A stretch of DNA of 64,000 nucleotides from Kiritimatiellia bacterium (GTDB lineage Bacteria > Verrucomicrobiota > Kiritimatiellia > RFP12 > UBA1067). Of the stretch, positions 1,188 to 46,514 are shown in pieces (the first letter of the stretch is position 1; each line of letters starts with the position of its first letter). The DNA lies in contig JAZOQU010000019.1 of NCBI GenBank assembly GCA_045656225.1, forward strand, positions 13,320 to 77,319. The letters run 5' to 3'. The notes below the pieces were generated by a model, which did no database searches, was not told the origin of the DNA, and worked only from the letters and a program-made list of their open reading frames with translations. The position numbers and the translations under genes are program-made.

Positions 1188-2219
1188 CTACACCATCATC
1201 ATCAACGCATCCTTCAACAATCTCACCCTCTCCTTCTCGCCCCCATCCCTATACCCCTTCAAATATATCAAGCGACCACCAAACCCAGTCCTCAGCTCTC
1301 CATCTACACGCTCTGCACGTTCTACACGGTTCAAACCATCCCCCCAAGCAGGAGCGCCATCCGTCGTAATAACACGCTTGCCGCGCTCAAGCGCCTCCGC
1401 GACGACCAGCCCAAAATTCTCGCTCAGCGTCGGCAACACCAGCACATCACACCAATCCCAAACCTTCTCCAGCTCCTCACCCTTCGCATCACTTACAATT
1501 CTCAGTTCAATATTTAACCGTGTAGAACGTGTAGAGCGTGTAGAATTTTGTAATTGCCTGACGGCAGCTTCAAGAAACTCAACCCCTTTAAGCGGATGCC
1601 GCCGACCTAAATACAGCAGGTTCAGTTGTGAGTTGTGAGTTGTGAGTTGTGAATTACTTTCATCCCTCTCCGACCCGGAACCCGAAGCCCTAAACCCAAA
1701 ACTCTCTCCCTCTACACGATCTACACGTTCTACACGGCTGATAAAATTCCCTCTCTCTTCTACACGTCCTATGCGTTCTTTGCGGCTAAAATCAAAAAAC
1801 CTCTTCACATCCTCCACCACAATCTCTGGACACTTCTTCCCTAAATACGCCTCAATCCACGCCTTCTCCGCGTCGCACGTCGCGACAATCCTATCCGCCT
1901 TCCTAAGCCAATACCGCTCAATCGGCCCGACAAGCCACTTCTTCCAACCATGATACCTAAGTCTAACAGGATCTAAATTCGCATGCGTCATCCGAACGAG
2001 CGGCCTCTTCGCCTCAACAACCCTCCTACAAGCCTTAAGCGTCATCGGCAACCAGCACGAATGAACCCAAACTTCCTCATATTTCGCTAAATCCTTAATC
2101 TTGCCAAATTCCCGCGCATCGACCATCTCCGCCGCCTGCTCGCCAGCTATCAACTTCGCCGCGACAGCGATGCCGTTAAACGGATTATCCAGCCCTGGAA
2201 CTACATGAAGAATCTTCAT
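1188..2219 (-). CDS. GT4 glycosyltransferase carrying in-frame low-complexity repeat insertions
   Basis: MKILHVVPGL start (ATGA overlap with upstream stop), LLYLGRRHPLKG and LPTLSENFGLVVAEAL; inserts read RVERVDRVE, STRSTRSTR and SQLTTHNSQL. Confidence 0.88.
   Translation of the reverse strand: MKILHVVPGLDNPFNGIAVAAKLIAGEQAAEMVDAREFGKIKDLAKYEEVWVHSCWLPMTLKACRRVVEAKRPLVRMTHANLDPVRLRYHGWKKWLVGPIERYWLRKADRIVATCDAEKAWIEAYLGKKCPEIVVEDVKRFFDFSRKERIGRVEERGNFISRVERVDRVEGESFGFRASGSGSERDESNSQLTTHNSQLNLLYLGRRHPLKGVEFLEAAVRQLQNSTRSTRSTRLNIELRIVSDAKGEELEKVWDWCDVLVLPTLSENFGLVVAEALERGKRVITTDGAPAWGDGLNRVERAERVDGELRTGFGGRLIYLKGYRDGGEKERVRLLKDALMMMV
1303..1545. repeat. Inverted pair of ~29-bp (TCTACACGN)x3-type repeats inside the GT4 gene
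   Basis: 1303-1331 tctacacgctctgcacgttctacacggtt vs 1516-1544 aaccgtgtagaacgtgtagagcgtgtaga (reverse complement, 1 mismatch); further copies near 1711-1739 and 1759-1790. Confidence 0.9.
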
Positions 2220-3815: not shown

Positions 3816-4643
3816 TTATCTCCACCAATATAAACAAGCCAGCAAACTCTTAATCCGAAAACGCAAAGACATTCCCCTTAACACCAATATACGCCAAAAA
3901 TATGGTCGTAGATATTTATTAGCCCCTTCAGCTGCCTTGTCATGCAATATAACATCAGTAAGCATTAATGCCATCCCCTGACGCGCTTCATCACGCCATT
4001 CCTCAGGAAGTTCATTAATCAACCCTAAAAAGCCTTTGCACGCTTCATCATAATCCATTCTCTGAGTATAATTACTTAATCCGTGACCATGCTTAACATA
4101 GCAATACAAACAATCAGGAATGAACTTAACTCTCTTCACTTTAGGCAAAACCTGAAGACTGGCCTGATAATCTTGCTTAACTCTTCCGTCAAATACAACA
4201 CCCTTCCAGAGCTCTCTACTAAACACCCGATGCCACAACCAATGAGGCATACCAAGCCCGCTTAACATATTCCTTGCATACGCTGAACCGTCTTCAATAT
4301 GCTCATTAGGAGAATATAGCCTACGCTTTTTACCTAAACGTATCTCATTAATGCCAAAAACTAAAACATCACAATCACGATTTACTTCCAATGCATCGGC
4401 AATTACACTAAACCATTCTGGCTCAACCACATCATCACAATCCACCCATGCTATCCAATCGCCAGTCGCTTTTGACAATCCCTCATTCCTCGCAATATAT
4501 GCACCGCGATGCTCTAAATCAAAACAAGGCAGCAGCTCATGCTCCACCTTACCGGAATATGCCGCGATTGATGTTGTAAGACTCTCGTCGCAGACTTTCC
4601 ATTCATCCATATTACCGACAGGAACTATAACCGATATTTTCAT
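3816..4643 (-). CDS. GT2 glycosyltransferase
   Basis: MKISVIVPV and ARNEGLSKATGDWIAWVDCDD. Confidence 0.9.
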   Translation of the reverse strand: MKISVIVPVGNMDEWKVCDESLTTSIAAYSGKVEHELLPCFDLEHRGAYIARNEGLSKATGDWIAWVDCDDVVEPEWFSVIADALEVNRDCDVLVFGINEIRLGKKRRLYSPNEHIEDGSAYARNMLSGLGMPHWLWHRVFSRELWKGVVFDGRVKQDYQASLQVLPKVKRVKFIPDCLYCYVKHGHGLSNYTQRMDYDEACKGFLGLINELPEEWRDEARQGMALMLTDVILHDKAAEGANKYLRPYFWRILVLRGMSLRFRIKSLLACLYWWR

Positions 4644-27592: not shown

Positions 27593-28767
27593 TTACCTAA
27601 GGCCCTCTTCAAAATACGTTTGATTCGCGCTTTAATTCTATTCATTAACGGTAACATCAAAAGTTTCATCACTATTACATCAAAATCCTTAGCCTTACAG
27701 GCAACATTAAAAAAGCGCGCTCTATTTCTATGAGGAAGAGGAGATTTGACGAGTGCGGGATTAATCCGCACAGCGTCATCATAATCCGACGGTACTACTG
27801 TAAGCGCCGCGTTGATGTCGCTCCAATACTTTTCGCCCTTATCTGTATTAACCAATATCAGCGAAGTACCCTTATCATCATCCATCTGAGGGAACTTCTC
27901 ATGAACGCGCCAATAATCGGCGATCGTCAAATCAGCCCCACTGCGCAATTCGCGGCACTTGCAGTTATGGCACGACGGACGATTATAAAGTTCAGAGAGA
28001 AAGCCGCGCAAGAATGTATCTTCGGTTAAATCTTTTAGATACTCATTGTCATTCGCGAAGCGTAATGATAATGAGTATCTCTTCCAGCCGCAATTCTTGC
28101 GCCTGAAAGAGATTCTCATTATATCACTAAGCTCACCCGCCCTATCCGTATAATCGGTAGCGAGGCGTTTCTCAAGGAATTTACGCCAGGCTAAAGGCGA
28201 AGGCGCCGCGTGACAGATAACATCAACTAAAAGAAGATTATCGTATTCTTTACCGAGAAAAAACTTAAGGCCAGCGACTTGGCAAGGAGTTCCGCTAAAG
28301 AGGACCTTACGATTTTTAGCGAGCTCGCCTTTAACGCGCTTATAAGTTTCGCCCATATCCGATTGGACATACTTTGAGCCGCGTAAATCTTCAAGCTCTT
28401 CTTCGTTTTCAGCAGACTTATGAATGACGCGCCAATCAGAATGATCAAAACCCGCGCCAAAAACTATGCCACCGTCAGCGATAACTGCGCGAGCTAAAAG
28501 CGAAAAGACGCCGCCAGACGACGAGCGCATACGAAGTTCGTCGTCGTTGGCTTTCGCGGCAAAAATGGCGAGCGGCTTACGCGGCGCGGGGCGCACCAAT
28601 ACAGGGCAAGCCTTAGCACAAAGGCCGCAATTAACGCACTTAGCCGAATCAATTTGGGGATGTGCAAATCCTTCAGCGTCTGGCACCATCGAAATAGCGC
28701 CCTTCACGCACGCGGCATAACACGCCGAGCATCCTGTACAATCGGTATGTGTTGCAAGAGAAATCAT
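27589..28767 (-). CDS. 4Fe-4S / F420 hydrogenase beta-subunit (FrhB/FdhB)-like protein
   Basis: CTGCSACYAAC, CVNCGLCAKACP, SSSGGVF, GSKYVQS and GTPCQ. Confidence 0.9.
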   Translation of the reverse strand: MISLATHTDCTGCSACYAACVKGAISMVPDAEGFAHPQIDSAKCVNCGLCAKACPVLVRPAPRKPLAIFAAKANDDELRMRSSSGGVFSLLARAVIADGGIVFGAGFDHSDWRVIHKSAENEEELEDLRGSKYVQSDMGETYKRVKGELAKNRKVLFSGTPCQVAGLKFFLGKEYDNLLLVDVICHAAPSPLAWRKFLEKRLATDYTDRAGELSDIMRISFRRKNCGWKRYSLSLRFANDNEYLKDLTEDTFLRGFLSELYNRPSCHNCKCRELRSGADLTIADYWRVHEKFPQMDDDKGTSLILVNTDKGEKYWSDINAALTVVPSDYDDAVRINPALVKSPLPHRNRARFFNVACKAKDFDVIVMKLLMLPLMNRIKARIKRILKRALGK

Positions 28768-30314
28768 GCTCTACCCACCTTCGAAAGTAAACCTTTAATT
28801 TTGGAGCCCACGAAATTTCGCTCTTCCTTATTTAACAGAATCATCCACGATAAAGCGACTAAAACCGTTTCAACTAAAAGTCCGGATACCAAAACTCTAA
28901 CGAAAGAAGTTTTCATAAAAAGTCGTGGCAAAAGTCCTATACCTGCGGTTATTGCGGCGACCATAAAAAGCGGCAAAAAGATGTGAAACAACCAATACCT
29001 CGCCGATAATCCAACTAATTTGCGAGCAAACCAGACTCGCCCCCATGCACACATAGCCATAGTGATAACCATTGAATAACCTACCGCGTACACGTTCCAA
29101 CCGATATGCACAAATATCCAGGCAATCGGCAATGTTAAAAGTAAAGCCCCGCCCAAGAACGCCTGATAAACTGCGATTTTGCCGCGAGCATTAACAGCAA
29201 GCATATGACCTACCGAGGTTTTATCAATAATAACCATCGCCATAACCGACCAGCACAGACCGTCAGTGTAGCGCGGAGGATTCTTAAGCCATATCCTTAA
29301 TATTTCAGGCAATTCAACAGCTATTGGAATCATAAAAATTAAAAGGAGCAATGTTCCGATTTTGCAAGCTTGATAAGCTAAAGCCCGCATTCGATCCATA
29401 TCTCCTGCTCCGTAAGCATTAGCAATAGCAGGCTGAAACGCTCCAATTAAACTCGACGATAATGTGCCAGCATGATTAACAACATTACTTCCGAGAGCCA
29501 TAGCGGAATTAACCTTAGGACCAAAGTACTTATTTACCAGTATAGCAAGCCCCTGCCCGCGCAACATAGCCCCAAGACAGCCGAAAGTTTGCCATCCAGC
29601 ATAGTAAAATAATTCCTTAAACTTATCGGTCGACCATACATAAGAAAGCTTAAAACGGCATTCGGGAAAGACAATAATAGCACGAATGCAGATAATAAGT
29701 TGAGGGACTACCGACATTAACATTCCCCATAGCGCGTATTTTGCCAACCAATCGCCAGGATTGGAAACCATATAATACAGGAAAAGGAAGTTAAGCGTTG
29801 TAGTAGCGAAAGAATATATCGTTAACTCTGCTATATACTGTTTAGCAGTATACATCGCCTGGAATGGCACATTAACCATACCGATAAAGCATGAAATGCA
29901 CACAAAGCGAAAAACCCAAACGCATGATTCTATTCTATCGGGAGGGATGATAAGCCAGTGGCGCACAGCCCATTCGCCAATCGGATAACCAATCATCATC
30001 AAAATTATCGGAATAACAGTATGAATAAACACCGCTATCGAGAACCATTGGCGACAGGACTCAAGGCCCTCGCTACTATTCTTTTGGGCTGCGCCGATCG
30101 AAACGGCATAAAAGCGACCTACGGCAGTAGCTAGGAGCCCATTAAAGAAAGCTATAAACGCAGTTAATCCTCCAACAACACCATACAACCCAAAGTCCAC
30201 CTGCCCCAGCGCCTCCAACACCCACCGCGCCGTAAAGAGCCCCAGCACAAGCGCATAAAGCGACCGCCCATACGTGGCGATGATGTTTAGGAATATGCGA
30301 CGATTAGGGGACAT
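28764..30314 (-). CDS. wzx: Polysaccharide flippase (Wzx/MOP family)
   Basis: Start MSPNRRIFLNIIATYGR; LGQVDFGLYGVVGG; many TM helices. Confidence 0.88.
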   Translation of the reverse strand: MSPNRRIFLNIIATYGRSLYALVLGLFTARWVLEALGQVDFGLYGVVGGLTAFIAFFNGLLATAVGRFYAVSIGAAQKNSSEGLESCRQWFSIAVFIHTVIPIILMMIGYPIGEWAVRHWLIIPPDRIESCVWVFRFVCISCFIGMVNVPFQAMYTAKQYIAELTIYSFATTTLNFLFLYYMVSNPGDWLAKYALWGMLMSVVPQLIICIRAIIVFPECRFKLSYVWSTDKFKELFYYAGWQTFGCLGAMLRGQGLAILVNKYFGPKVNSAMALGSNVVNHAGTLSSSLIGAFQPAIANAYGAGDMDRMRALAYQACKIGTLLLLIFMIPIAVELPEILRIWLKNPPRYTDGLCWSVMAMVIIDKTSVGHMLAVNARGKIAVYQAFLGGALLLTLPIAWIFVHIGWNVYAVGYSMVITMAMCAWGRVWFARKLVGLSARYWLFHIFLPLFMVAAITAGIGLLPRLFMKTSFVRVLVSGLLVETVLVALSWMILLNKEERNFVGSKIKGLLSKVGRA

Positions 30315-30375
30315 GTCAACTGTTGCCAATGTGAAAATGTTACCAATTACCAAATTCAGAGCATTTTAATTCCAC

Positions 30376-31014: not shown

Positions 31015-31803
31015 TCATAGCTTAAAGTCTTGATACAAGCTATCTAGGAATTTCGCACCACAACGTCCATTTGTTCCACAAAATGCCGTCTCTATCCTAA
31101 CTTTACGCATGATGTTTTGTAACGAAGAATACGAGACATTCATTAACCCCTTAGTGTCTGCCTTATATTTTAAGTTGAGCATTGACTCATTAAGATTTTC
31201 CAGACTCGTATCTTCAGCAAACTTGCCAAACCGCGTACAAGGTCTTCGCGCAATTATCCGAGCAATTGTCAACTCGTGATACAACCATGGAGATAGTGTT
31301 TCAACTCTATTTCTAGATGCAGTGATTGACGAATTTGGCGTATCCAAGAAGATAAAGCATTCCGTCAAATCAATCATTCGCGTAAGCGCATGAGCAAGCA
31401 TGATATAAACATGAGCAGTTGATCTATTACGCCTTTCATAAGCATATATCTTTGAGCCATCAGCATCTATATTCTTCACACAATACGTATCATCTATTTT
31501 TCTAAGTAATTCGCTCGCATACCTCCACACTTCTGAATCAACAAATACTTTCAGGCCCATACGCTCTAATTGACCGGCTAACTTCCTTGTGAGTTCGCAA
31601 TCGTTATGTGAATGAGACAGGAATATGTCTGCATCGTAATTGGGAAACCATGTATCCATTATCCAATTGGCATCCTGCGAATCAAGTACAGAGTCAATGT
31701 CTAGATCGACATTTAATTTCGCTACTGGTTTGTGTCCCTGATTTAACTTTTTAATTTCTTTGATGTTAGCATCATCCAAGATTAGTCTAAATCCCCTATA
31801 CAT
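31015..31803 (-). CDS. TIR-domain protein
   Basis: DIFLSHSHND, VFVDS and SPWLYHEL (candidate catalytic Glu). Confidence 0.82.
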   Translation of the reverse strand: MYRGFRLILDDANIKEIKKLNQGHKPVAKLNVDLDIDSVLDSQDANWIMDTWFPNYDADIFLSHSHNDCELTRKLAGQLERMGLKVFVDSEVWRYASELLRKIDDTYCVKNIDADGSKIYAYERRNRSTAHVYIMLAHALTRMIDLTECFIFLDTPNSSITASRNRVETLSPWLYHELTIARIIARRPCTRFGKFAEDTSLENLNESMLNLKYKADTKGLMNVSYSSLQNIMRKVRIETAFCGTNGRCGAKFLDSLYQDFKL

Positions 31804-31922
31804 TGTAATTACCCCCTATATTTTTTACATATTGCCATCAAATGTCATCGCCAAAATGGAAACCGTAATCACAACATAAACCTACGTACCAATAGCTGTC
31901 AATTTCGACTTGAGCGGTTACC

Positions 31923-32534
31923 CTATCGAAGATTCCTCAGTCTTATTTTTTCAGCAATCCTACTATATCGTTTTTCATAGGCGCAATTGACATATTGATC
32001 AGGATCCGCAATAAACTGCGCATAAGTAGTCAAAACGCAATATCTGTCCCTCTCACCCCAACAGCAACCTGGCTTCGGGGGAATAAAATAATTACAACTA
32101 AATTCCCTGACCACCGTGCTATCATCAACTATCGCAGTGAAGTGAGTCTTTCCACAAACCGAACACTGGTAATTACCAGTAAAAACCCTGCTTTCCATCT
32201 CTGGCAGAACAACTCCAACAATCCCACTGCGCGTGTTGCCTTTCCCGTCGAACAAAGACGCTTGCAGTTCTCGTTTGATGAAAAAATTGTTATCTCTCCC
32301 AAATCTATCGACGCCTTCATCCTCCTTTGAATGCAGCCCTATAAGAAAAAGTGTGACAGTGGTATCGGAAAGATAGTTGTCTCTGATTTCCTGCAAAATA
32401 TAATCAGCATCTTCACTATCAATCCATCTATCCAGAAACTTAACGGGCACATCCTCCTGTCCAAGTTTCTTCAAGATTTCATCACGATAATACTTGTCCT
32501 CTTTCTTAAAAGATATAAAACACTTATGACTCAT
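31923..32534 (-). CDS. thsB: Thoeris ThsB TIR-like protein (DUF1863)
   Basis: MSHKCFISFKKED, IRDNYLSDTTVTLFLIG and FIKRELQASL; ATGA overlap with thsA. Confidence 0.85.
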   Translation of the reverse strand: MSHKCFISFKKEDKYYRDEILKKLGQEDVPVKFLDRWIDSEDADYILQEIRDNYLSDTTVTLFLIGLHSKEDEGVDRFGRDNNFFIKRELQASLFDGKGNTRSGIVGVVLPEMESRVFTGNYQCSVCGKTHFTAIVDDSTVVREFSCNYFIPPKPGCCWGERDRYCVLTTYAQFIADPDQYVNCAYEKRYSRIAEKIRLRNLR

Positions 32535-33367
32535 ATACGCCACTCCCTTTCTAAAGAAACCAGATTCATGTTCTTCAGCGATTTCTTGTAAAGAACAATA
32601 TTCACTTGGGTTGAGACTTTCTCGTGCTCTAAGCATTCTGTCACAATTGATGCAAGCAATACATTGAAAAGAGCCTGCTCAGGAGACTTTATTCGAGCAT
32701 TCCCGCTACCCATCAGGGGAAACGATACCGTATCGCCATTTGCACGTTCTCGTGCTACATCCAAGGCACCGCTAACAACCACGTTTAAATCCTTGAGTTC
32801 CGACTGCGTACGATGCGTCTCAGCATTAGTCCTAGATATTGCAACTAAGACAAACCGCTTGCCAGCATCCGTTTTGACAAAAACCGCCGTTCCTATCGGA
32901 TATCGTTTCTCCTTTGCCATTCCATCTCGTACTGTTGTTTCATACTTTTTACCTGTAAGTCCATCCTCTATCTGCATGTCAAGGGCTCCAACATTCGCAC
33001 CCCAATACTTTTTCACCATCATTCCATGTAGACTTTTCTCTGATATATGGCAATCATCGACTAATGTATCGAAAAAATCATTCACACCTATTACAGCAAC
33101 GCCATTTTCGTTAAAGATATCACCATATGACACATTAACTTCCATCCCGACCGCACCAACACGAATGCGTGCCCGACGTTTTAGATACCCCTCTATCAAA
33201 AATCCGTTTACAATGAATATACCCACACCAACAACAAAAACACAAACGATGTAACACCATGGATTATGAAGCGGCTCCAACTTGCATTCCATTGGAATTG
33301 ATGCGATTGACTGAACAACTGTCAATCCGTAAAATAACGCCAATATAATCCTTAAAACATTCTTCAT
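32531..33367 (-). CDS. thsA: Thoeris type II ThsA (TM plus macro domain)
   Basis: Two N-terminal TM helices; YGDIF, IGVNDFFDT, SLHG, YPIGT and FPLMGSG. Confidence 0.85.
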   Translation of the reverse strand: MKNVLRIILALFYGLTVVQSIASIPMECKLEPLHNPWCYIVCVFVVGVGIFIVNGFLIEGYLKRRARIRVGAVGMEVNVSYGDIFNENGVAVIGVNDFFDTLVDDCHISEKSLHGMMVKKYWGANVGALDMQIEDGLTGKKYETTVRDGMAKEKRYPIGTAVFVKTDAGKRFVLVAISRTNAETHRTQSELKDLNVVVSGALDVARERANGDTVSFPLMGSGNARIKSPEQALFNVLLASIVTECLEHEKVSTQVNIVLYKKSLKNMNLVSLEREWRI

Positions 33368-33972: not shown

Positions 33973-34039
33973 AAGAAATCATGATCATTAGGTTTTTCCA
34001 GCCTTCCATGGGGGCACCCCCCCCCATGGACGAATCCCG

Positions 34040-34175
34040 TCAACGCTCTCGCCCCGTGGGGTATGCAGTCGAATACCTCATTTCAAATTTTTCTAATGCT
34101 TTATTGCAGTTTTGGCTCATTATCGACGCCATTCTTTATGTTATATATTGTAACCTTTTAGTTACCCAAAGTCAA
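34040..34175 (-). promoter_or_regulatory. Promoter plus leader ORF plus ops-like motif, copy A
   Basis: TTGACT-17-TACAAT; ORF 34132-34040 MASIMSQNCNKALEKFEMRYSTAYPTGRER; GGGGCGAGAGCGTT. Confidence 0.75.
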
Positions 34176-34444
34176 GTTACAAGCGCATCATTGGCAATTG
34201 CATCATCTACGCCAACTTCATCTGAAGAAGGCCTTAAAATCGGCATAAAGTCCATCTTCAGCGCCTGAGCCAACTTCGCCGCCGTCCGGAACGAAAAGTT
34301 CACATCCTGGCTTAACACCTTTGTGATATACGGCCGCGAAACCTTCATCCTCTTCGCCAGCTCAGTCTGGTTAATCCCCAACTCCTTCATCCGAAGAAGT
34401 ATCGCCCTCAGAAACGCCGAGCCTATTTTGTTGAGTGTGTCCAT
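34172..34444 (-). CDS. XRE-family helix-turn-helix protein
   Basis: LGINQTELAKRMKVSRPYITKVL...NFSFRTAAKLAQAL. Confidence 0.85.
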   Translation of the reverse strand: MDTLNKIGSAFLRAILLRMKELGINQTELAKRMKVSRPYITKVLSQDVNFSFRTAAKLAQALKMDFMPILRPSSDEVGVDDAIANDALVT

Positions 34445-34463
34445 TTTAGTCGTTAGCTTTTTT

Positions 34464-34600
34464 TAGTCGAAGTCCAAAGTCGAAGTCGAACAGTGGCGGT
34501 TTTTAGCCGTGTAGAGGTGGAGATGGGGAGAAGTGATTTTATTTAGGTAAAACTTCACGACTAGGCCCCCGTGACCCTAGACAAGAAACTAGCTTCGACT
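34464..34600. repeat. Micro-repeat stack (AGTCGA-type hexamer unit ending GAACAGTG)
   Basis: agtcgaagtccaaagtcgaagtcgaacagtgg...ttttatttaggt; a related stack lies at 39129-39197. Confidence 0.75.
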
Positions 34601-35216: not shown

Positions 35217-35545
35217 TTAAAAGACTCTTCTGGCTGATTAATCAGGCATGAAGCGAAAGATAATGTAACCGGATCAAGAGACCTGATCTCCCGAGCTTCT
35301 TCTGCAACAACTGAAAGAGAATAATAACTTATCAATTGTCGTATATCCTTAACGCCACCGCGTTCCAAAACCCGTTGAACGATAAAGCGTTTGTGAGTAT
35401 TTTCTTCAATTGATTCAATAGAGACATCCCAGAAGAGCCGTTTTGAAAGAGATCGAACCAACCCCTTCTCCAGACAACGCTCTCGCCCCGTGGAGCATGC
35501 AGCAGAATACCTCATTTCCGTGTTTTGTGGCAATCCTTCCACCAT
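35195..35545 (-). CDS. DUF6922-like putative antitoxin, in frame with leader copy B
   Basis: LSKRLFWDV, FIVQRVLERG and LDPVTLSF; N-terminus MVEGLPQNTEMRYSAACSTGRER is the leader peptide. Confidence 0.7.
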   Translation of the reverse strand: MVEGLPQNTEMRYSAACSTGRERCLEKGLVRSLSKRLFWDVSIESIEENTHKRFIVQRVLERGGVKDIRQLISYYSLSVVAEEAREIRSLDPVTLSFASCLINQPEESFKCYTSRQ

Positions 35546-37480: not shown

Positions 37481-37625
37481 CTAAAAAACGCCAAGCTCTC
37501 GCCCCGTGGGGTATGCAGCCGAATACCTCATTTCAAATTTTTCTAATGCTTTATTGCCGTTTTGGCTCATTATCGACGCCATTCTTTATGTTATATATTG
37601 TAACCTTTTAGTTACCCCAAGTCAA
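37481..37625 (-). promoter_or_regulatory. Promoter plus leader ORF plus ops-like motif, copy C (near-identical to A)
   Basis: TTGACT-17-TACAAT; ORF 37582-37481 MASIMSQNGNKALEKFEMRYSAAYPTGRELGVF; ~135 bp nearly identical to 34045-34179. Confidence 0.78.
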
Positions 37626-37817
37626 GTTAGAAGTTTTTCAGCAATATTTGCAGGGTGCGATTCTAAATTGTTGAAGGTTTTGCGGCTTTGGGCGTGTGGT
37701 TCGTCCGTCGAACGCGTCGACTCCGCGCGTTCCGCGCTTTCGACGCACCCCGCATAGCGCCCGCTTCGCAGCTCGGCTTCGCCTCGGGGGATACCGGAAT
37801 TCGCGACACTGGACAAA

Positions 37818-38341: not shown

Positions 38342-38833
38342 TCAGCGTTTGACAGGTTCGATATCATTGGGCGATACCGACACTTCGACCGCAGCGCCAA
38401 GTATTTCGACATTCAGGCAAAGCGTCGCATCGCGACCGCGTCTGACGACACAGCCTTCAACTCCATAGAGCGGCCCGGAAATCACCTTTACAAAATCACC
38501 GACGTTGGACATGACAACGGGTTTGAGCTGCGGCGCATTGCGGGAGGCCCGAGAAATCTGGCGCAACTGGTGGATCATCGTTCTCGGCTGAGGCACGAGG
38601 ATCGTTCTGACGAGAAGATTCGTCTTCAGCATCTTCAGTCGCTCTTCTGGATAGAGTTTTGTGAAAACATACCCCGGGAAGCACGGAAGAATGCGGCTGA
38701 CCTTGCGCCGCTGAACTCTGGTTATCTTCTGGTATGTCGGCAGATATCCGAAATACCGGTAATTCTCAATAAAGCTCATCACCTTCTTTTCGGTGCGAGG
38801 TTTCACATGAAGAACATACCAGTCACGCTTCAT
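38342..38833 (-). CDS. NusG-paralog transcription antiterminator (UpxY/RfaH/LoaP-like)
   Basis: WYVLHVKPRTEKKV, PCFPGYVF and KOW motif VGDFVKVISGPLYGVEG. Confidence 0.9.
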   Translation of the reverse strand: MKRDWYVLHVKPRTEKKVMSFIENYRYFGYLPTYQKITRVQRRKVSRILPCFPGYVFTKLYPEERLKMLKTNLLVRTILVPQPRTMIHQLRQISRASRNAPQLKPVVMSNVGDFVKVISGPLYGVEGCVVRRGRDATLCLNVEILGAAVEVSVSPNDIEPVKR

Positions 38834-38964
38834 TTTCAGACAAACGCAAAAAAACCGAACATGAAAAAGCGCACCTTGTCAGCAGCACGGCCAACAAGGC
38901 GACAGCAAGCATCAGCAGAAAAATCGAGCAATCTTCTCATACCCAATAGTATAGCACAAAAATG

Positions 38965-39064
38965 CCCACCCCTCCACACTACCCACTAAGCTCCACATTT
39001 ACGCATCCAAACTCCGAGCGCCTGTCGCTATGATGTTGAGAAATTTTCACCGATTAGGTGTTAT
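38965..39064 (-). pseudogene. Degenerate wzx 5' fragment
   Basis: Minus strand reads ITPNR*KFLNIIATGARSL, vs intact wzx MSPNRRIFLNIIATYGRSL. Confidence 0.7.
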
Positions 39065-39236
39065 AGTTAATGTGTTGGAGTTACGAGTTCGAGTTCGAGT
39101 TACTTGTTTCGGGTTGAGGGTTTCGAGCTAGTCGAAGTTAAAAGTCGAACAGTGGTGGTTTTATTTAGGTGAAGGTCAAAGATGAAGGTGAACAGTGAAA
39201 GTATAGATGGTAATTTAATTATTGAATTATTGAAGT

Positions 39237-39827
39237 TTATTTTCCTGTAAACACACCTAGATCTGGCCTATCCAACTCTTTATAAAAAATATCTAATATT
39301 CTTAACAAATGATTTGACTCACGCTTAATAGCCTCCTTAGATGCCTGCAAAATCTCATAAAGTTCATTAATTTCAGATGGCATCAATTTACTATTAAGAC
39401 CTCTCAATATTACACTGGCATTTATTCTCTGGCATGTCGTGACAAAATTTAACAAAGTATTTGCGTCCGAAATTTCACTAGGCCCTCTTGCTGGTATCGC
39501 ACTATGTATATACGGCATCACAGCCAGTACTTCCGTGTCCGTGTCAGAAGCCGTCGCATATTTTTGAATCATATTAAATGTCAGGACTACATTAAGCCGC
39601 ACTTTTTCCTCAGACGGATCATCTGTCACAATTTTAACCAATGTATCACATAAATTATTCCTATAGGTCAATGCTTTAATAGCCCCGATTATTGCATCGT
39701 GTGCTTTAATATACATAAGATGTCGTATATTAGCTTCTGATGCAAATCTCTGCGCTTTTATTGATGCGCATCGATTTATTACAGCACCTACTATTACCCC
39801 AACCAATCCAATAATAGCTTCACTCAT
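39237..39827 (-). CDS. Hypothetical protein, N-terminal TM plus helical body
   Basis: IIGLVGVIVGAVI hydrophobic segment. Confidence 0.6.
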   Translation of the reverse strand: MSEAIIGLVGVIVGAVINRCASIKAQRFASEANIRHLMYIKAHDAIIGAIKALTYRNNLCDTLVKIVTDDPSEEKVRLNVVLTFNMIQKYATASDTDTEVLAVMPYIHSAIPARGPSEISDANTLLNFVTTCQRINASVILRGLNSKLMPSEINELYEILQASKEAIKRESNHLLRILDIFYKELDRPDLGVFTGK

Positions 39828-39928
39828 AAAAATCTTCTTGTTAATTTATTTTTCTGACACATCATTAAACTCTAACTCGAACCTTTCCGCTATCAGCGGT
39901 TCACTACTCTGCGAACTCACAAAAAAAA

Positions 39929-40138
39929 CTATCGTTCTTTTGACTTCAGTTCCGCTATAACATTCTCTAGCACATACCCATCACTCATCAACTGAAGACC
40001 ATACTTTGCATCTGACAATTGCTTGTATGTTTCTGTTGAATAGAAGATATCCAACGCCTTCTCTTCATCAACTTCAAGCGCTGAAGCAAGGGCCATAATG
40101 ATTCTCGCCTGCTTTCTCCATAAAACATTGTCACGCAT
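39929..40138 (-). CDS. DUF3791-like small protein
   Basis: MRDNVLWRKQARII...ALDIFYSTETYKQL...GLQLMSDGYV. Confidence 0.7.
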   Translation of the reverse strand: MRDNVLWRKQARIIMALASALEVDEEKALDIFYSTETYKQLSDAKYGLQLMSDGYVLENVIAELKSKER

Positions 40139-40146
40139 GATACACC

Positions 40147-40641
40147 TTATAAAATTTCAGCTCCAATAAACTTAAGACATGTATCAATCACAACTTGAGA
40201 ACGAATGCATATCTGATGATTTACCTTTTTATAAATTAATTGGCCCAACGCCTGCTCTGCTGTTATTATGCCATTTTCATAATCTTCGACGGTATCAATT
40301 ACATTATCATTAGCAACGCCACCTTCTATCACATCGTATTGAAGCTGCAATTCTCCTCCACGCCTACAATCAATCACATAATTTAGCCATTCCATATCAT
40401 ACGCATCAAACACCTTATAACGCGCACCTAACATATTCTTGGCCATCGCTTCATTAAAATCATAAGTGTTCAACACTGGCTTACCATATCGAGTACGACT
40501 TGCAATAACCCTAGCCCAAGATTTAGCTTGATCTGAAAGACTTGAGAGATAGAACCCTCTACCAAAATCCACCCTGGCGCGCCCAGCTTCCACCTTTGGA
40601 TTCGCTACACTAACATCAGACCCGTGAAACAACTGAATCAT
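40147..40641 (-). CDS. DUF3990 family protein
   Basis: LFHGS, DFGRGFY, EWLNYVIDCR, YDVIEGGVAND and HQICI. Confidence 0.85.
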   Translation of the reverse strand: MIQLFHGSDVSVANPKVEAGRARVDFGRGFYLSSLSDQAKSWARVIASRTRYGKPVLNTYDFNEAMAKNMLGARYKVFDAYDMEWLNYVIDCRRGGELQLQYDVIEGGVANDNVIDTVEDYENGIITAEQALGQLIYKKVNHQICIRSQVVIDTCLKFIGAEIL

Positions 40642-40880
40642 ACACCGGCCTCCCAATTTTTCAAAGTTGTTATGGTATCTTCTGCAACCCAATCGAGACT
40701 TTGGGTATGCAAGTCATCATACATTGCGATTAAACGATTGTGAATCAAGTCTTGAGCTTTGAGCCGATCATGCATAACTTGACCCGAAATACCAAGCTTT
40801 CGAGCGCCACTCTCAATCGCCATCACAGCAAAGTGTATGCGCTTATGTACATCAGATTTATTGAACGCATTCATACCCAT
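40638..40880 (-). CDS. DUF3791-like small protein
   Basis: IHFAVMAIESGARKLG...YDDLHTQSLDWV; ATGA overlap with DUF3990. Confidence 0.75.
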   Translation of the reverse strand: MGMNAFNKSDVHKRIHFAVMAIESGARKLGISGQVMHDRLKAQDLIHNRLIAMYDDLHTQSLDWVAEDTITTLKNWEAGV

Positions 40881-41004
40881 AACTCTCCCTTCATCCAATC
40901 TTGTAAATCCCGTTAATCCTGTCAAACCCACTCACCTTAAATCTCCAATTCCACTGTTCACCTTCACCTTTCACCTTCACCTCTAAAAAACTCGAACTAA
41001 AAAA

Positions 41005-41137
41005 GCCACGCTCCGCACTCAAGAGGCACTCACTCGAATACCTCATCATATTTTCTAATGCGTTGTTTTTATTTAGGCTCATTATCCACGCCATTCTTTA
41101 TGTTGAGTATTTTACCTTTTTAATCCCCAAAAGTCAA
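41005..41137 (-). promoter_or_regulatory. Promoter plus leader ORF plus ops-like motif, copy D
   Basis: TTGACT-17-TAAAAT; leader MAWIMSLNKNNALENMMRYSSECLLSAER; GTGCGGAGCGTGG. Confidence 0.72.
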
Positions 41138-41405
41138 CTTGTAACCGCCTTTTCTTTAATTTATATTTAATGATTTACGATAATTTTAACTAAATTTATG
41201 CTATAATTTTACATAACGCTTAACCGCCAATTCATAAGGAGTCGCAATGTCCGATCAAGCCCCCGCCCTAAAAATAATTTTCCAAAAAATCTCTCGAAAA
41301 TTACTTAAACAAATCCTATCCATAAACGAAAAACCTCTCGATTTAGATTGGACGCTCCCCTCCCCCAACTTTGAAGAAGACCTTTTCAACGCCCTCACCC
41401 ACAAT

Positions 41406-41533
41406 TTTGGCACAAACAGGTCTGACCTTCCTGTGCCACTTTGGCACTAATTCCCCATATCCACCCCTTTTCCACCCAAAACCCCAACATATAAAAGTGG
41501 CACAAAAAGGTCAGACCTATTTGTGCCACTTTG
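41406..41533. repeat. REPIN-like doublet of TGGCAC...GGTC(A/T)GACC...GTGCCA palindromes
   Basis: Two ~36-40-bp imperfect palindromes about 50 bp apart; the ~127 bp recurs at 46388-46514. Confidence 0.88.
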
Positions 41534-41537
41534 TCAA

Positions 41538-42560
41538 TCATCCGCGCACCTTCTTCAAAAGCCGATACGCTGTTCGCAACGACACCCCCAACGCATCCTG
41601 AATAGACTTCGCCCTGGCATCAGGATCTCGTTCAAGAATTTCCCGAACGGCCACCTCCAACATATCGTTTCGTGCTGCGCGCCGCCCTTTCATCGCTGTC
41701 GATTCATGCATCTCGACCGCCGCCGAGCGAACCTTCTCAAGATGCGCCGAGGCTTGGGCGATCATCGCCTCGGTCGTTAATGAGTCTACCGGCATTTCAT
41801 AACCGGCCGCGCGCTTGCGGGCGATTTCTTCAGCACGGCGCAACTTCTCCTTTTCAAGCAGCCGCTCAAGTAATGCTTCATGTCGCTCAGTTATCTCATC
41901 CAAAGAATCGTCATCACCATAAATAAAACGCATCCCCTTTTCAGACAACCTATTGCCGCGACGAAACGCAGTGTAGCTGCTCCAAAAATATCCATCGAAT
42001 TTATCAGCTACAGCTGCGCGTATTGGATTTAGATGAATGTAACCAAGACACTCAGCCATCTTTGAAATTGATTGTTCAACAATTCGATCATGATATGCCG
42101 ATTCCCAAAGTGTACCCTTATGACTGTATCGCCGATTGTATTCCATCGAGAACCATTGCTTAAGAATCTTCATAAACTCTCCAACATCGAACATTCGAGC
42201 GTAAAGTTTATCCAACTCCTTTTTAACAAGCTTCTCGCCTGGCTCACCTTTAAGCCGCCACTCCTCGAAACTCTTCGCTAACTGAGCTGCGGCAGTATCA
42301 CCTTTTAAAACACCATAACGACGTAAAATCTCATCCTCTTCCAAAACGCGGCGATTCGGTAAATAAACAAGAATGTGAAAATGATTGGTCATAATGCACC
42401 AACCGATAAGTTCAAGACAACAAAATTCAGCAGATCGCCGCATCATATCAATAAATTCATCGCGCTCCTCATCCTTCAAAAAATAAACGCGATGCGCAAT
42501 GCGACTAACCAAATGATGAACAGTATCAGTTTCTTTAGAACGATTATTAGAATTCGCCAT
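41538..42560 (-). mobile_element. REP-associated tyrosine (HUH/Y1) transposase, RAYT-like, with C-terminal HTH
   Basis: HHLVSR, WCIMTNHFHIL (HUH), GTLWESAY, YIHLNPIRA and YFWSSY; likely start MANSNN after AAGGAGG. Confidence 0.88.
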
Positions 42561-42577
42561 ACCACCCTCCTTCACAT

Positions 42578-42706
42578 TTTGGCACAAATAGGTCTGACCT
42601 TCCCGTGCCACTTTGGCAGTATATTATCATAATCGCGCCAAAACTGCAATAGACACCCACTTATGATTTTGGCACAAACAGGTCAGACCTATTTGTGCCA
42701 CTTTGG
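42578..42706. repeat. REP-like palindrome pair upstream of the RAYT
   Basis: tggcacaaataggtctgaccttcccgtgccactttgg and tggcacaaacaggtcagacctatttgtgccactttgg. Confidence 0.88.
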
Positions 42707-43029: not shown

Positions 43030-43202
43030 ATAAGCCAACATCACAATCACCGTCATTCCACCAACCACTCCATATAATCAAAGCTCACTCTTTCCCGCCG
43101 CCGCCAAACCCACCGGCTAACGAACAACCCGCACACAAGCGCATACAGCGACCGCCCGTATGTCGCTATGATGTTCAGGAAGATTCGACGATTAGGAGTC
43201 AT
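43030..43202 (-). pseudogene. Degenerate wzx 5' fragment
   Basis: Minus strand reads MTPNRRIFLNIIATYGRSLYALVCGLFVSRWV, then frameshifted. Confidence 0.85.
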
Positions 43203-43509
43203 TTTAGGGGTTAGGAGTCAGGAGTTAGCTGGTTTCGTCTGAGGATTATTATTTAACAACAAGATGTCAGTTCATAGCCATCTTTCAGAAGTATGTTGCA
43301 AAGGTAACACCTCAAGAATCCAACCCTCCCGTAACTAACGCCTTCTTAAATAATTTTAGCTCCATTTATTACAACTCTCGATTTTTAAGACATAAGTTTA
43401 GATTAACTTTCTAAGCAATAGTCACGCAATCCCCAACTTTGCAACATTGCCAAAACTTTGCGCACAACATGTTTTAAATCATTATTTTAGCGCACAAGAG
43501 TACTTTATG

Positions 43510-45362: not shown

Positions 45363-45559
45363 AGTCTTGAATTTTATCTTTTTAGAAAATAAGCTTGAGT
45401 ATTATATCAAATTTACCGTTCGCATTTCAATGAGGCCATGACTTTCACGCTTATCACGATTTTTCGGAAATTATCCCGACTATATGAAAACCCCTGCATT
45501 ATTCAGGCACCTGATCATATCTCCATAATCAGCATTCATCGGACCCTTCGCCACGTTCC

Positions 45560-45655
45560 GACCACGCTCCGCGCCCCATGGGGTATGCAGCCGAATATTC
45601 CATAGCCAAATTTTTCTGTGTTTTCTCTCTCATAACGCTTACATTATATCATTTT
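45560..45655 (-). promoter_or_regulatory. Leader/ops-like module, copy E
   Basis: TGaTATAAT near 45643-45651; leader MREKTQKNLAMEYSAAYPMGRGAW; TATTCGGCTGCATACCCCATGGGGCGCGGAGCGTGG. Confidence 0.68.
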
Positions 45656-46115: not shown

Positions 46116-46387
46116 TTTTATACATTACCCCCGAATCAATTTCAACGACAATATTGGACAAATTCAAAATGACATTTTAAATTTGCCAGCCAAAACTCAA
46201 ACTCTTATGCATAATTTTAGAATTAACTTCTTTTTCATTAATATTTTTTGGATATCATTTTACTCTTGCGATTAAAGAACCACCATTCATAAATTCTATA
46301 ACTTATATTTTATGTTATACTCCTATTAAAAAACATCAATTCAAGGAGGTCAAAATGGCTGAACAATCACCCACAATAAGAATTACT

Positions 46388-46514
46388 TTTGGCACAAATA
46401 GGTCTGACCTTCCCGTGCCACTTTGGCACTAATTCCCCATATTCACCCCTTTTCCACCCAAAGCCCAACATATAAAAGTGGCACAAAAAGGTCAGACCTA
46501 TTTGTGCCACTTTG
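46388..46514. repeat. Second copy of the REPIN-like doublet
   Basis: Near-identical to 41406-41533 including the spacer, same orientation. Confidence 0.88.

What the first reader, a model, noticed from the sequence alone, without database searches (positions are those of the whole stretch)
39075..41002. Cargo genes bracketed by nested inverted micro-repeats with fixed architecture but interchangeable hexamer
Seen in sequence: a 31-bp inverted pair (39167-39197 and 40952-40982, 29/31 identical) encloses four genes, with both GAACAGTG ends pointing inward. AGTTCGAGTT-type repeats form an outer inverted pair (~39078-39101 vs ~40989-40999), and an inner copy at ~39868-39882 brackets the single gene 39237-39827. 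The unit AGGTGA AGGTGA A AGGTGA AGGTGA ACAGTG has the same layout as AGTCGA AGTCCA A AGTCGA AGTCGA ACAGTG at 34465-34495, with only the hexamer changed. Inference: these are cassette ends or recombination sites belonging to several specificity classes.
Basis: partly seen in the sequence, partly recalled or inferred. Interest (0 to 1): 0.78.

Follow-up and report, generated by a model that had tools for sequence, protein, structure and literature searches.

The report
Repeat-armed gene cassette carrying defence genes
The inverted micro-repeats are the two stem arms of a widespread but little-described hairpin cassette, the kind that normally holds the small gene known from ribosomal-RNA intervening sequences; here it holds a candidate anti-phage operon that has recently passed between gut bacterial species.

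Summary
Units 39167-39197 (+) and 40952-40982 (-) match 29/31, point inward, and enclose four minus-strand genes. The organism is a ruminant-gut Kiritimatiellae MAG.

In two relatives the same AGGTGA arms enclose a 134-aa PF05635 gene (23S rRNA intervening-sequence protein). PF05635 genes are generally bracketed by inverted arrays of a short tandem repeat whose unit differs per locus: 22 of 29 loci in this genus and 45 of 77 across phyla, against 4 of 200 control ORFs.

Here the usual cargo is replaced by a DUF3791/DUF3990/69-aa operon (PADLOC candidate PDC-M13) plus a 196-aa ORF. The constant ACAGTG holds the ancestral cargo's GTG start codon.

The cassette is 98.3% identical in another species, where a core gene is 87% identical, and the identity stops at the arms. 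Metagenome contigs show the 36-nt arm in many contexts.

No recombinase is tied to the arms. The neighbouring Y1/RAYT-like gene has different palindromes of its own.

"Cassette ends" is supported; "recombination sites of several specificity classes" is not shown. An RNA stem (-69 kcal/mol) cut by RNase III is the likeliest function, by analogy only. Mismatch patterns do not favour RNA over DNA.

The parts
40941..40999 (-). 5' arm of the cassette on the transcribed (minus) strand. Core unit is 40952-40982: AGGTGA AGGTGA A AGGTGA AGGTGA ACAGTG. Outer AGTTCGAGTT at 40989-40998. The GTG of ACAGTG now opens only a 5-codon vestigial frame.
   Evidence: 58 nt (40949-41006) are 98% identical to the 5' arm of a PF05635 cassette in a genome of another family. 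It behaves as a dispersed repeat with many flanks in metagenome contigs.
39158..39208 (+). 3' arm. Core unit 39167-39197, G-rich when read on the plus strand; its complement lies in the minus-strand transcript after the last cargo gene.
   Evidence: RNA duplex with the 5' arm is -69.0 kcal/mol, against a shuffled mean of -37.8, sd 4.3.
39128..39154 (+). Second, shorter unit of the AGTCGA class (three hexamers plus ACAGTG), outside the 3' arm.
   Evidence: family D9
39074..39101 (+). GAGTTC/GTTCGA tandem array, the outer part of the 3' arm. Copy number varies: one metagenome contig carries an extra CGAGTT at 39083.
39024..39058 (-). 35-nt remnant of the 5' end of the Wzx-like flippase gene (27/35 to the intact gene).
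40638..40931 (-). Cargo gene 1: DUF3791, matches PADLOC PDC-M13A. The likely real start is the ATG at 40880, read from the sequence.
40147..40692 (-). Cargo gene 2: DUF3990, matches PADLOC PDC-M13B. The likely start is the ATG at 40641, overlapping the stop of gene 1. One metagenome contig lacks exactly 40144-40639.
39929..40138 (-). Cargo gene 3: 69 aa, matches PADLOC PDC-M13C.
39237..39827 (-). Cargo gene 4: 196 aa, no family. It is not PF05635-like.
41003..41148 (-). Promoter-like site (TTGACT-17-TAAAAT, 41137-41109) plus a conserved leader, one of three full copies in the island. It would drive the transcript that holds both arms.
34465..34495 (+). Solo arm of the AGTCGA class. No partner was found in the island.
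43057..43232 (-). 146-nt copy of the flippase 5' end (43202->43057, 116/142), preceded by a GGGGTTAGGAGT-type arm (43208-43232).
28764..30353 (-). Intact Wzx/MatE-like flippase (ATG at 30314), with a TGGTAA/TGGCAA-type repeat directly upstream (30315-30353).

Best explanation
The inverted pair is the two stem arms of an intervening-sequence-type cassette. In this element type a small cargo sits between two inverted arrays of one short tandem repeat. The arm 5' of the cargo is C-poor on the sense strand, and the repeat unit differs from element to element.

Its usual cargo is the PF05635 four-helix-bundle gene, the ORF of 23S rRNA intervening sequences. In the AGGTGA class the hexamer resembles a Shine-Dalgarno sequence (my reading, not tested). 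The constant ACAGTG(G) carries the GTG start codon of that gene.

In this window the frame sits in the leader region of a polysaccharide locus, next to a remnant of the flippase 5' end. Its cargo has been replaced by a PDC-M13-like candidate defence operon plus one unknown gene.

Shown:
- the arms are conserved;
- they recur with other cargo;
- they delimit a segment exchanged between species.

Inferred:
- Both arms lie in one minus-strand transcript and pair into a duplex of about 45 bp that RNase III cuts, as in rRNA intervening sequences. The insert would then be separated from the host operon's RNA.
- Exchange of cargo and context happens by recombination between the dispersed arms and the repeated promoter/leader and flippase-fragment modules, not by a dedicated site-specific enzyme.
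For: Same arms, canonical cargo:
- L013 (another family) units at 5820(+)/6226(-) and L014 units at 4132(+)/4538(-) each enclose a 134-aa ORF that hits PF05635 at E 1.8e-36 and 5.4e-36.
- The ORF in L013 starts at the GTG of ACAGTGG.
- L018 (two copies) and L020 hold the same arms around a 5' remnant of that gene. L020 aligns to L013 at both ends and lacks about 250 internal nt.

Generality:
- 22 of 29 PF05635 loci in the genus have an upstream arm complementary to a downstream arm.
- Across many phyla the figure is 45 of 77 (46 in a re-run with another seed).
- Each locus has its own unit. Periods are mostly 7, 14 or 8.
- Only 4 of 200 control ORFs of 100-150 aa in this genome pass the same test, and one of those is a PF05635 gene.

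This window:
- The arms give an RNA duplex of -69.0 kcal/mol, against shuffles with mean -37.8 and minimum -48.3.
- There is a promoter-like site at 41137-41109(-) and no terminator-like site before the 3' arm.
- An RNase III gene is present.

Exchange:
- Window 39143-40969 equals L020 1688-3514 at 98.3% over 1828 nt.
- This was the only full copy in the 117 genus genomes searched, this genome among them.
- The core gene PFOR is 87% identical between the same two genomes.

Precedent: the Coxiella intervening sequence has an S23p ORF and a 28-bp terminal stem cut mid-stem by RNase III (PMC4990558, passages read).
Against: - Nothing here shows an RNA stem or RNase III cutting. The laid runs were contigs only and cannot show RNA ends.
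- Mismatches between arms do not favour G:U pairs on the sense strand. Counts were 39 sense against 21 antisense in the genus set, but 38 against 53 across phyla. Transversions are the largest mismatch class (56 and 116).
- Most units in this genome are unpaired. Only 2-3 of 16 have a partner within 3.5 kb, and U3/U4 is the only intact tandem-repeat pair in 30.3-47 kb.
- 7 of 29 and 32 of 77 PF05635 loci did not pass my arm test.
- Two other DUF3990 loci in the genus have no arms. The arms therefore belong to the site or frame, not to this cargo.
- How the cargo was replaced is not reconstructed.
Confidence: 0.6

Rival explanations
1. The arms are the terminal inverted repeats of a foldback-type mobile DNA cassette. 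It would be moved in trans by an enzyme that recognises hairpin or cruciform structure rather than sequence, for example a Y1 HUH enzyme or an unknown one. Different repeat units would be different lineages of the element.
For: - Deletion derivatives keep both arms (L018 twice, L020).
- An ORF-less pair exists (C33 28143/28189, 17-nt gap).
- The 36-nt arm sits in many contexts in metagenome contigs: depth 151 and 219 against about 20, with loose ends at 40947-40950 and 40982-40983.
- Arm mismatches are symmetric, as expected for DNA copies.
- The cassette has recently moved between species, and the shared segment is bounded by the arms.
- A Y1/RAYT-like gene lies 540 nt away.
Against: - I saw no target-site duplication next to the arms in the copies I read.
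- That Y1 gene is flanked on both sides by its own palindromes (TGGCACAAA..GGTC.GACC..GTGCCA, six copies in the window). These are unrelated to the hexamer arms.
- Relatives with the arms (L013, L014) have no such gene among the ORFs I annotated next to them.
- Contig joints seen were a deletion of one cargo gene and tandem arm duplications. None showed excision at the arms.
Confidence: 0.15
2. One reading: the units are site-specific recombination sites of an integron-like cassette array, with several specificity classes defined by the hexamer.
For: - The island is an array of same-strand cassettes separated by arms. In L014 an AGGTGA unit stands before an AbiE pair, two stand before the PF05635 gene, and one stands after it.
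- Arms coincide with the ends of the shared segment.
- A close relative, G106 (99% identical in the NusG-like gene and in the 680 nt of PFOR at a contig end), breaks away from the window inside the unit at 34475.
Against: - There is no integron integrase. The two tyrosine recombinases of the genome are on other contigs.
- The arms are split across the cargo instead of forming one compact site per cassette.
- The flippase remnants beside the arms have different lengths, 35 and 146 nt. That argues against a fixed crossover point.
- Hexamer copy number changes by slippage.
- The unit is different at nearly every locus across phyla. That many sequence specificities is implausible.
- Another breakpoint with G106 lies at 38983, 184 nt from the nearest unit.
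Confidence: 0.1
3. The arms are purely regulatory repeats of the host. The 5' array would be a ribosome landing pad: Shine-Dalgarno-like AGGTGA repeats plus a start codon. Its complement downstream would mask it or act as a 3' stabiliser or insulator. The arms would play no part in gene movement.
For: - AGGTGA resembles the Shine-Dalgarno consensus (my knowledge), and the start codon lies in the arm.
- Heptamer direct repeats just upstream of start codons, in forward orientation, are described in Beggiatoaceae, cyanobacteria and Bacteroidetes, with a proposed post-transcriptional role (PMC4679880, abstract and passages).
- 12 of 17 units in this genome point at the 3' end of a gene on the other strand.
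Against: - Most other units (GTGCAGG, TGGTTTG, TAGCTTC and others) are not Shine-Dalgarno-like.
- In this window the start codon in the arm opens only five codons.
- Regulation alone does not explain why identity between species stops at the arms.
Confidence: 0.08

Closest known systems
ORF-bearing 23S rRNA intervening sequences (Coxiella burnetii; also Leptospira and Salmonella as cited in PMC4990558)
   Same: A small cargo is enclosed by terminal inverted repeats that form a long stem. The canonical cargo is the same protein family (S23p, PF05635). Distribution is sporadic and horizontal transfer is proposed. In the paper the stem is 28 bp and RNase III cuts it mid-stem.
   Different: - Here the element is not in rRNA; there were no Rfam hits in the window. 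It sits in the leader of a polysaccharide operon.
- The arms are arrays of a 6/13-nt tandem repeat.
- The cargo is a four-gene, 1.75-kb candidate defence module instead of the PF05635 ORF.
- RNase III cutting is not shown here.
Short tandem heptamer repeats of bacterial intergenic regions (TAACTGA repeats of Beggiatoaceae/cyanobacteria/Bacteroidetes, PMC4679880; cyanobacterial STRR, recalled)
   Same: Short-period tandem arrays in intergenic DNA lie directly upstream of start codons in forward orientation, and the units are lineage-specific.
   Different: That paper describes direct repeats. It reports a single inverted case and has no occurrence of S23, 23S rRNA or four-helix in its text. Here the arrays come as complementary pairs around a cargo.
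Integron gene cassettes and attC sites
   Same: Arrays of same-strand accessory and defence cassettes are separated by imperfect palindromic elements of variable sequence. Toxin-antitoxin cargo is present.
   Different: There is no integrase. The two halves of the palindrome flank the cargo instead of forming one site at its 3' end. Each module carries its own promoter/leader copy.
REP/REPIN elements with RAYT (Y1 HUH) genes
   Same: A RAYT-like gene (NCBIfam REP_Tyr_transpos, 57.4 bits, below the cut-off of 80) lies next to the cassette and is flanked by palindromes.
   Different: Its palindromes (TGGCACAAA..GGTC.GACC..) are a different sequence family from the hexamer arms. This is a neighbour, not the same system.
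Foldback transposons of eukaryotes (recalled)
   Same: Long terminal inverted repeats are built from short tandem subrepeats of variable copy number. Some copies carry cargo and many carry none.
   Different: Those are eukaryotic elements with known transposition. No transposase or target duplication is seen here.

Membership tests
23S rRNA intervening sequence (IVS) with S23p ORF | Inserted in a helix of the 23S rRNA gene | tested here: not met
   No rRNA or any Rfam family in the window. The element lies between protein-coding genes.
23S rRNA intervening sequence (IVS) with S23p ORF | Terminal inverted repeats able to form a long stem around the insert | tested here: met
   29/31 core and 51 nt at 82%. 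Duplex -69.0 kcal/mol against a shuffled mean of -37.8.
23S rRNA intervening sequence (IVS) with S23p ORF | Cargo is a PF05635 (S23p) ORF | tested here: not met
   None of the four cargo ORFs hits PF05635, and the 196-aa ORF shows no profile similarity. The feature is met in relatives carrying the same arms (L013, L014).
23S rRNA intervening sequence (IVS) with S23p ORF | Excised from the precursor RNA by RNase III | not testable with these tools
   An RNase III gene is present. Only assembled contigs of RNA runs were available.
Tandem-repeat-armed PF05635 cassette outside rRNA (not found described in the papers I searched) | Upstream array complementary to a downstream array of the same short unit, with the C-poor arm 5' on the sense strand | tested here: met
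   Met in the window; in 22 of 29 genus loci and 45 of 77 loci across phyla, against 4 of 200 control ORFs.
Integron cassette / attC | Integron integrase next to the array | tested here: not met
   The PF00589 search of the whole genome found two genes, on contigs C54 and C34, and none on the window's contig.
Integron cassette / attC | One compact imperfect palindrome at the 3' end of each cassette | tested here: not met
   The arms are 1.75 kb apart on either side of the cargo. Other units in the island are solo.
REP/REPIN of the neighbouring RAYT-like gene | The repeat flanking the RAYT gene is the same as the repeat in question | tested here: not met
   The gene at 41538-42611 is flanked by TGGCACAAA-type palindromes at 41405-41443, 41495-41533, 42577-42614 and 42667-42705. 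These are unrelated to the hexamer arms.
MITE / foldback-type transposable element | Target-site duplication outside the terminal inverted repeats | tested here: inconclusive
   None was seen by eye beside the arms in the window, C33 or L001/L013. No systematic test was made.
PADLOC candidate system PDC-M13 (cargo) | Components A, B and C encoded together | tested here: met
   40638-40931 hits PDC-M13A (9.1e-13), 40147-40692 hits PDC-M13B (9.2e-49), and 39929-40138 hits PDC-M13C (4.6e-11). The defence function itself is untested.

The most novel reading that the evidence does not exclude
Tandem-repeat-armed hairpin cassettes would be a pan-bacterial class of structure-recognised mobile element. 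Its native gene, the Avd-like four-helix-bundle protein PF05635, would be the maintenance or mobility factor. Its frame could capture other genes, here an anti-phage candidate operon, and carry them between species. The concerted TC<->GT change in all four hexamers would then reflect a templated way of rewriting the arms, not ordinary mutation.
Probability: 0.15. Interest if true: 0.9.

Novelty: new variant of a known kind. Interest (0 to 1): 0.62.

Why it matters
It connects three puzzles:
- the intervening sequences of ribosomal RNA;
- the large PF05635 protein family of unknown function;
- the short tandem repeats that litter intergenic DNA in many phyla.

It shows one such frame outside rRNA carrying a candidate defence system that has recently crossed a species boundary as a unit.

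If the arms act in RNA, they show how an insert in an operon leader can be made harmless to the host transcript. If they act in DNA, they are the ends of an undescribed kind of gene cassette.

In practice, the arms mark the edges of exchangeable accessory modules in these gut bacteria.

Tried and rejected
- Rfam, at gathering threshold on the whole window and at E-value threshold on 33-47 kb, gave only chance microRNA-like hits on the RAYT palindromes.
- Chance or simple-repeat origin is rejected.
- The adjacent Y1/RAYT-like gene as the enzyme of the arms is rejected, because it has its own palindromes.
- The 196-aa cargo protein as a diverged PF05635 protein is rejected: hhalign probability 0.3%, and the Atlas gives only unnamed clusters.
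- The sense-strand G:U bias test for an RNA stem gave opposite leanings in the two sets, so it decides nothing.
- A strict exact-seed scan of the genome for inverted repeats missed the imperfect arms and was dropped.
- The conserved leader motif has no conserved fold: 3 predicted pairs and no covariation.
- Arms around other DUF3990 loci of the genus (L057, L062): none found.
- No tRNA gene at the island ends in the window.
- Laying public runs gave only contigs, so there is no information on RNA ends, excision or inversion. RNA-library contigs cover parts of the cargo but do not prove transcription.
- The first profile for the cross-phylum search was too diverse and was rebuilt from 17 sequences.
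- Literature searches returned no paper whose title or abstract, as listed, describes PF05635 genes bracketed by inverted tandem arrays outside rRNA. I read passages of only PMC4990558 and PMC4679880. Supplements were closed and subscription journals are not covered, so this is not proof of absence.
Full report
**Observation**

On the plus strand, 39167-39197 reads AGGTGA AGGTCA A AGATGA AGGTGA ACAGTG. The reverse complement of 40952-40982 reads AGGTGA AGGTGA A AGGTGA AGGTGA ACAGTG. That is 29/31, with both ACAGTG ends inward. The repeat finder extends the pair to 51 nt at 82%.

- GAACAGTG is 5-fold over expectation in the window: 5 against 1.06, and 0 of 100 shuffles reach 5.
- The AGTCGA unit at 34465-34495 has the same layout. 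A shorter AGTCGA unit lies at 39128-39154.
- The outer AGTTCGAGTT pair is exact but only 10 nt long.
- The 'inner copy' at 39868-39883 is not above chance.

**Setting**

The window is contig C19:13320-77319 of a 2.6-Mb, 50% GC assembly. Exact copies of the unit occur only in Kiritimatiellae MAGs from ruminant guts.

Window 7-47 kb is a low-GC stretch (about 40%, against about 55% on the high-coordinate side) with almost all genes on the minus strand. The part from 30 to 46 kb holds, in order:
- a Wzx/MatE-like flippase;
- Thoeris-like ThsA/ThsB genes;
- an HTH gene;
- an AbiEii gene;
- a P63C-domain gene;
- a NusG-like UpxY/LoaP-type gene;
- the four genes of the finding;
- a Y1/RAYT-like gene;
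- an HD/dGTPase-like gene.

The intergenic DNA is built from repeated modules:
- A promoter-plus-leader module has three full copies (34035-34186, 37485-37636, 41003-41148) and two partial ones.
- There are copies of the first codons of the flippase gene. One is 146 nt (43202->43057, 116/142). The other is 35 nt (39058->39024, 27/35).

**What the arms are**

The 25-nt unit (up to 2 mismatches) occurs 14 times in this genome, 16 times in G017, 6 in G001 and 3 in G032, which belongs to another family. In all, 7 of the 41 genomes searched (this genome and 40 relatives) have it. The reversed-pattern control gives none.

In L013 (the G032 locus) and L014 (the G001 locus), a plus unit and a minus unit about 380 nt apart enclose a 134-aa ORF. 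That ORF hits PF05635, the '23S rRNA intervening sequence protein', at E 1.8e-36 and 5.4e-36. The ORF begins at the GTG inside ACAGTGG and reads on through the downstream arm.

In L018 (two copies) and L020, the same arms enclose only the first ~110 nt of that gene. L020 aligns to L013 at both ends and lacks about 250 internal nt.

The window's 5' arm with its outer flank (40949-41006) is 98% identical over 58 nt to that of L013. The 3' arm is 97% identical over 31 nt.

**Generality**

PF05635 genes occur in 43 of the 61 genus genomes searched, this genome among them. For 29 such loci I aligned 220 nt upstream with the reverse complement of 220 nt downstream. Twenty-two scored more than 5 points above the best of 30 shuffles.

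- Each arm is a short-period tandem array, and each locus uses another unit (TGGTTTGT, GTGCAGG, AGGGATG, TAGTCGT, AGTCGA, AGGTGG and others).
- The arm upstream of the gene is always C-poor on the sense strand.

A profile of 17 of these proteins found 597 relatives in the species-representative genome collection. The 80 best came from these groups:
- Bacteroidota
- Acidobacteriota
- Verrucomicrobiota
- Planctomycetota
- Clostridia
- Proteobacteria
- Patescibacteria
- Elusimicrobiota

Of the 77 with enough flank, 45 passed the same test (46 with another random seed). Periods were mostly 7, 14 or 8.

As a control, 4 of 200 ORFs of 100-150 aa in this genome passed, and one of those four is a PF05635 gene. 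So 'fixed architecture, interchangeable unit' is a general property of the elements that carry this gene. The window holds one of them.

After these tests I looked at the scan's notebook. It holds 137 earlier notes that fit a word search on this theme. The eight shown describe such repeat-built arms or hairpins in other genomes, six of them around the PF05635 gene itself. They agree with my result but are not independent evidence.

**The hexamer swap**

Window 34459-34534 and L020 1081-1156 differ at 8 of 76 positions. All eight are TC<->GT at the same two places of each of the four hexamers. The irregular fifth base of the second hexamer, the extra A, the ACAGTGG tail and 39 nt of flank are all unchanged.

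Over this genome plus all fetched loci (2.96 Mb, a biased sample), the layout occurs in three classes: AGGTGA 30, AGTCGA 6, AGGTGG 1. A reversed-tail control gives 0. I have no tested explanation for this concerted change.

**The cargo here**

- 40638-40931 is DUF3791.
- 40147-40692 is DUF3990.
- Together with the 69-aa ORF they hit PADLOC's candidate system PDC-M13 A, B and C, at 9.1e-13, 9.2e-49 and 4.6e-11.
- The 196-aa ORF has no family and is not PF05635-like.
- Two other DUF3990 loci of the genus have no arms. The arms therefore belong to the frame, not to this cargo.

**Evidence for exchange**

Of the 117 genus genomes searched, this genome among them, only G092 (the genome of L020) has the whole cassette. 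It matches window 39143-40969 at 98.3% over 1828 nt. The core gene PFOR is 87% identical between the same genomes.

Beyond the arms the neighbours differ on both sides.

G106 is 99% identical in the NusG-like gene and in the 680 nt of PFOR at a contig end, yet it has a quite different array. One breakpoint with the window lies at 38983, 184 nt from the nearest unit. Another lies inside the unit at 34475.

Sixteen DNA runs hold 0.42-0.59 of the sampled words of 38900-41250. In the four runs laid:
- Depth at 40954-41032 is 151 and 219, against about 20 elsewhere.
- Loose ends of differing sequence sit at 40947-40950 and 40982-40983.
- The cassette has at least two other left-hand contexts, starting at 39151 and 39164.
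- One contig carries an extra CGAGTT at 39083.
- One contig lacks exactly the DUF3990 gene.
- Two contigs carry tandem duplications of the 5' arm.

No excision or inversion joint at the arms was seen. Contigs cannot exclude one.

**Mechanism**

A promoter-like site lies at 41137-41109 (-). No terminator-like site lies between it and the 3' arm. So both arms are probably in one transcript. This is an inference.

The arms can form a duplex of -69.0 kcal/mol, against shuffles with mean -37.8, sd 4.3 and minimum -48.3. The antisense pairing gives -58.5. RNase III is encoded in the genome.

In rRNA intervening sequences such stems are cut by RNase III (PMC4990558, passages read). By analogy I take RNA-level excision of the insert from the operon transcript as the likeliest function.

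The evidence for RNA over DNA is weak. G:U-compatible mismatches lean to the sense strand in the genus set (39 against 21) but the other way across phyla (38 against 53). Most units in this genome are unpaired.

For the DNA side, the arms and the other repeated modules are dispersed repeats long enough for homologous exchange. The flippase remnants differ in length (35 and 146 nt). No dedicated recombinase is at hand:
- The genome has two tyrosine recombinases, on other contigs.
- It has three Y1-like genes.
- The one next to the cassette has its own palindromes.

I therefore favour recombination at repeats over site-specific integration. A structure-recognising mobile system is not excluded.

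**Comparison and novelty**

The closest known system is the ORF-bearing 23S rRNA intervening sequence. The window's element shares the stem-around-cargo design and, through its relatives, the cargo family. It fails membership on location (not in rRNA) and on present cargo.

Heptamer repeats upstream of start codons are described (PMC4679880, abstract and passages). That text has no occurrence of S23, 23S rRNA or four-helix.

My four literature searches returned no paper whose title or abstract, as listed, describes PF05635 genes bracketed by inverted tandem arrays outside rRNA, or such a frame with other cargo. I read passages of only PMC4990558 and PMC4679880. Supplements and subscription journals were not searchable.

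I rate the finding a new variant of a known kind.

Noticed in passing
window 41405-41443, 41495-41533, 42577-42614, 42667-42705, 46387-46425, 46476-46514; gene 41538-42611 (-): A 357-aa Y1_Tnp/RAYT-like gene (Pfam 9e-08; NCBIfam REP_Tyr_transpos 57.4 bits, below the cut-off of 80) is flanked on both sides by pairs of a 35-40-nt palindrome, TGGCACAAA.AGGTC.GACC....GTGCCACTTTG. A third pair lies 4 kb away. Single copies lie on contigs C34, C35 and C39, and in G106 at the end of its array.
   Followed up: partly
window 34035-34084, 35469-35518, 37485-37534, 41003-41050, 45557-45606 (minus strand): A conserved leader motif, ATGAGGTATTCGGCTGCATACCCCACGGGGCGAGAGCGT, follows the repeated promoter in five places here, and also occurs in G092 and G106. 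It has no conserved fold. It contains GGCGAGAGCGTG, which resembles the ops element of RfaH as I recall it. A NusG-like UpxY/LoaP-type gene lies at 38342-38833. It could be the loading site of that antiterminator.
   Followed up: partly
window 1303-1331, 1516-1544, 1624-1652, 1711-1737: More tandem-repeat arms of other classes. TCTACACG-type 9-mers occur in inverted copies 184 nt apart, around what reads as a fragment of a glycosyltransferase (my own translation by eye). There is also an AGTTGTG x4 array.
   Followed up: no
window 40144-40639: One metagenome contig (run X1, depth 16) joins 40143 to 40640 with TT between. That removes exactly the DUF3990 gene from the PDC-M13-like operon.
   Followed up: no
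window 31015-33367: Thoeris-like genes: ThsA Macro domain (4.3e-40) and two TIR/ThsB-like ORFs. They lie just upstream of the flippase, in the same minus-strand array.
   Followed up: no
window 37744-37796: A GC-rich stretch of about 50 nt (..CGCTTCGCAGCTCGGCTTCGCCTCGGGGGATACC..) lies upstream of a truncated secreted-protein ORF. It matches at 85-98% in many genomes of the genus, in several copies in some (four in G078).
   Followed up: no
L020 1118-1156 and 1420-1478: In G092 a 94-aa PDDEXK_3 (PF13366) gene is bracketed by an inverted pair (27/30) of the sequence that follows the window's unit at 34496-34534. This is another non-PF05635 cargo in a stem frame.
   Followed up: partly
genome contigs C22, C25, C29, C31, C37, C55, C59: A repeat of about 50 nt, GTGGTATAATGGTCTTGTGAATCGCGAAACGAACAGTGTTATAAACGGGCG, occurs 8 times in the genome. 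It shares only the GAACAGTG octamer with the arms.
   Followed up: no
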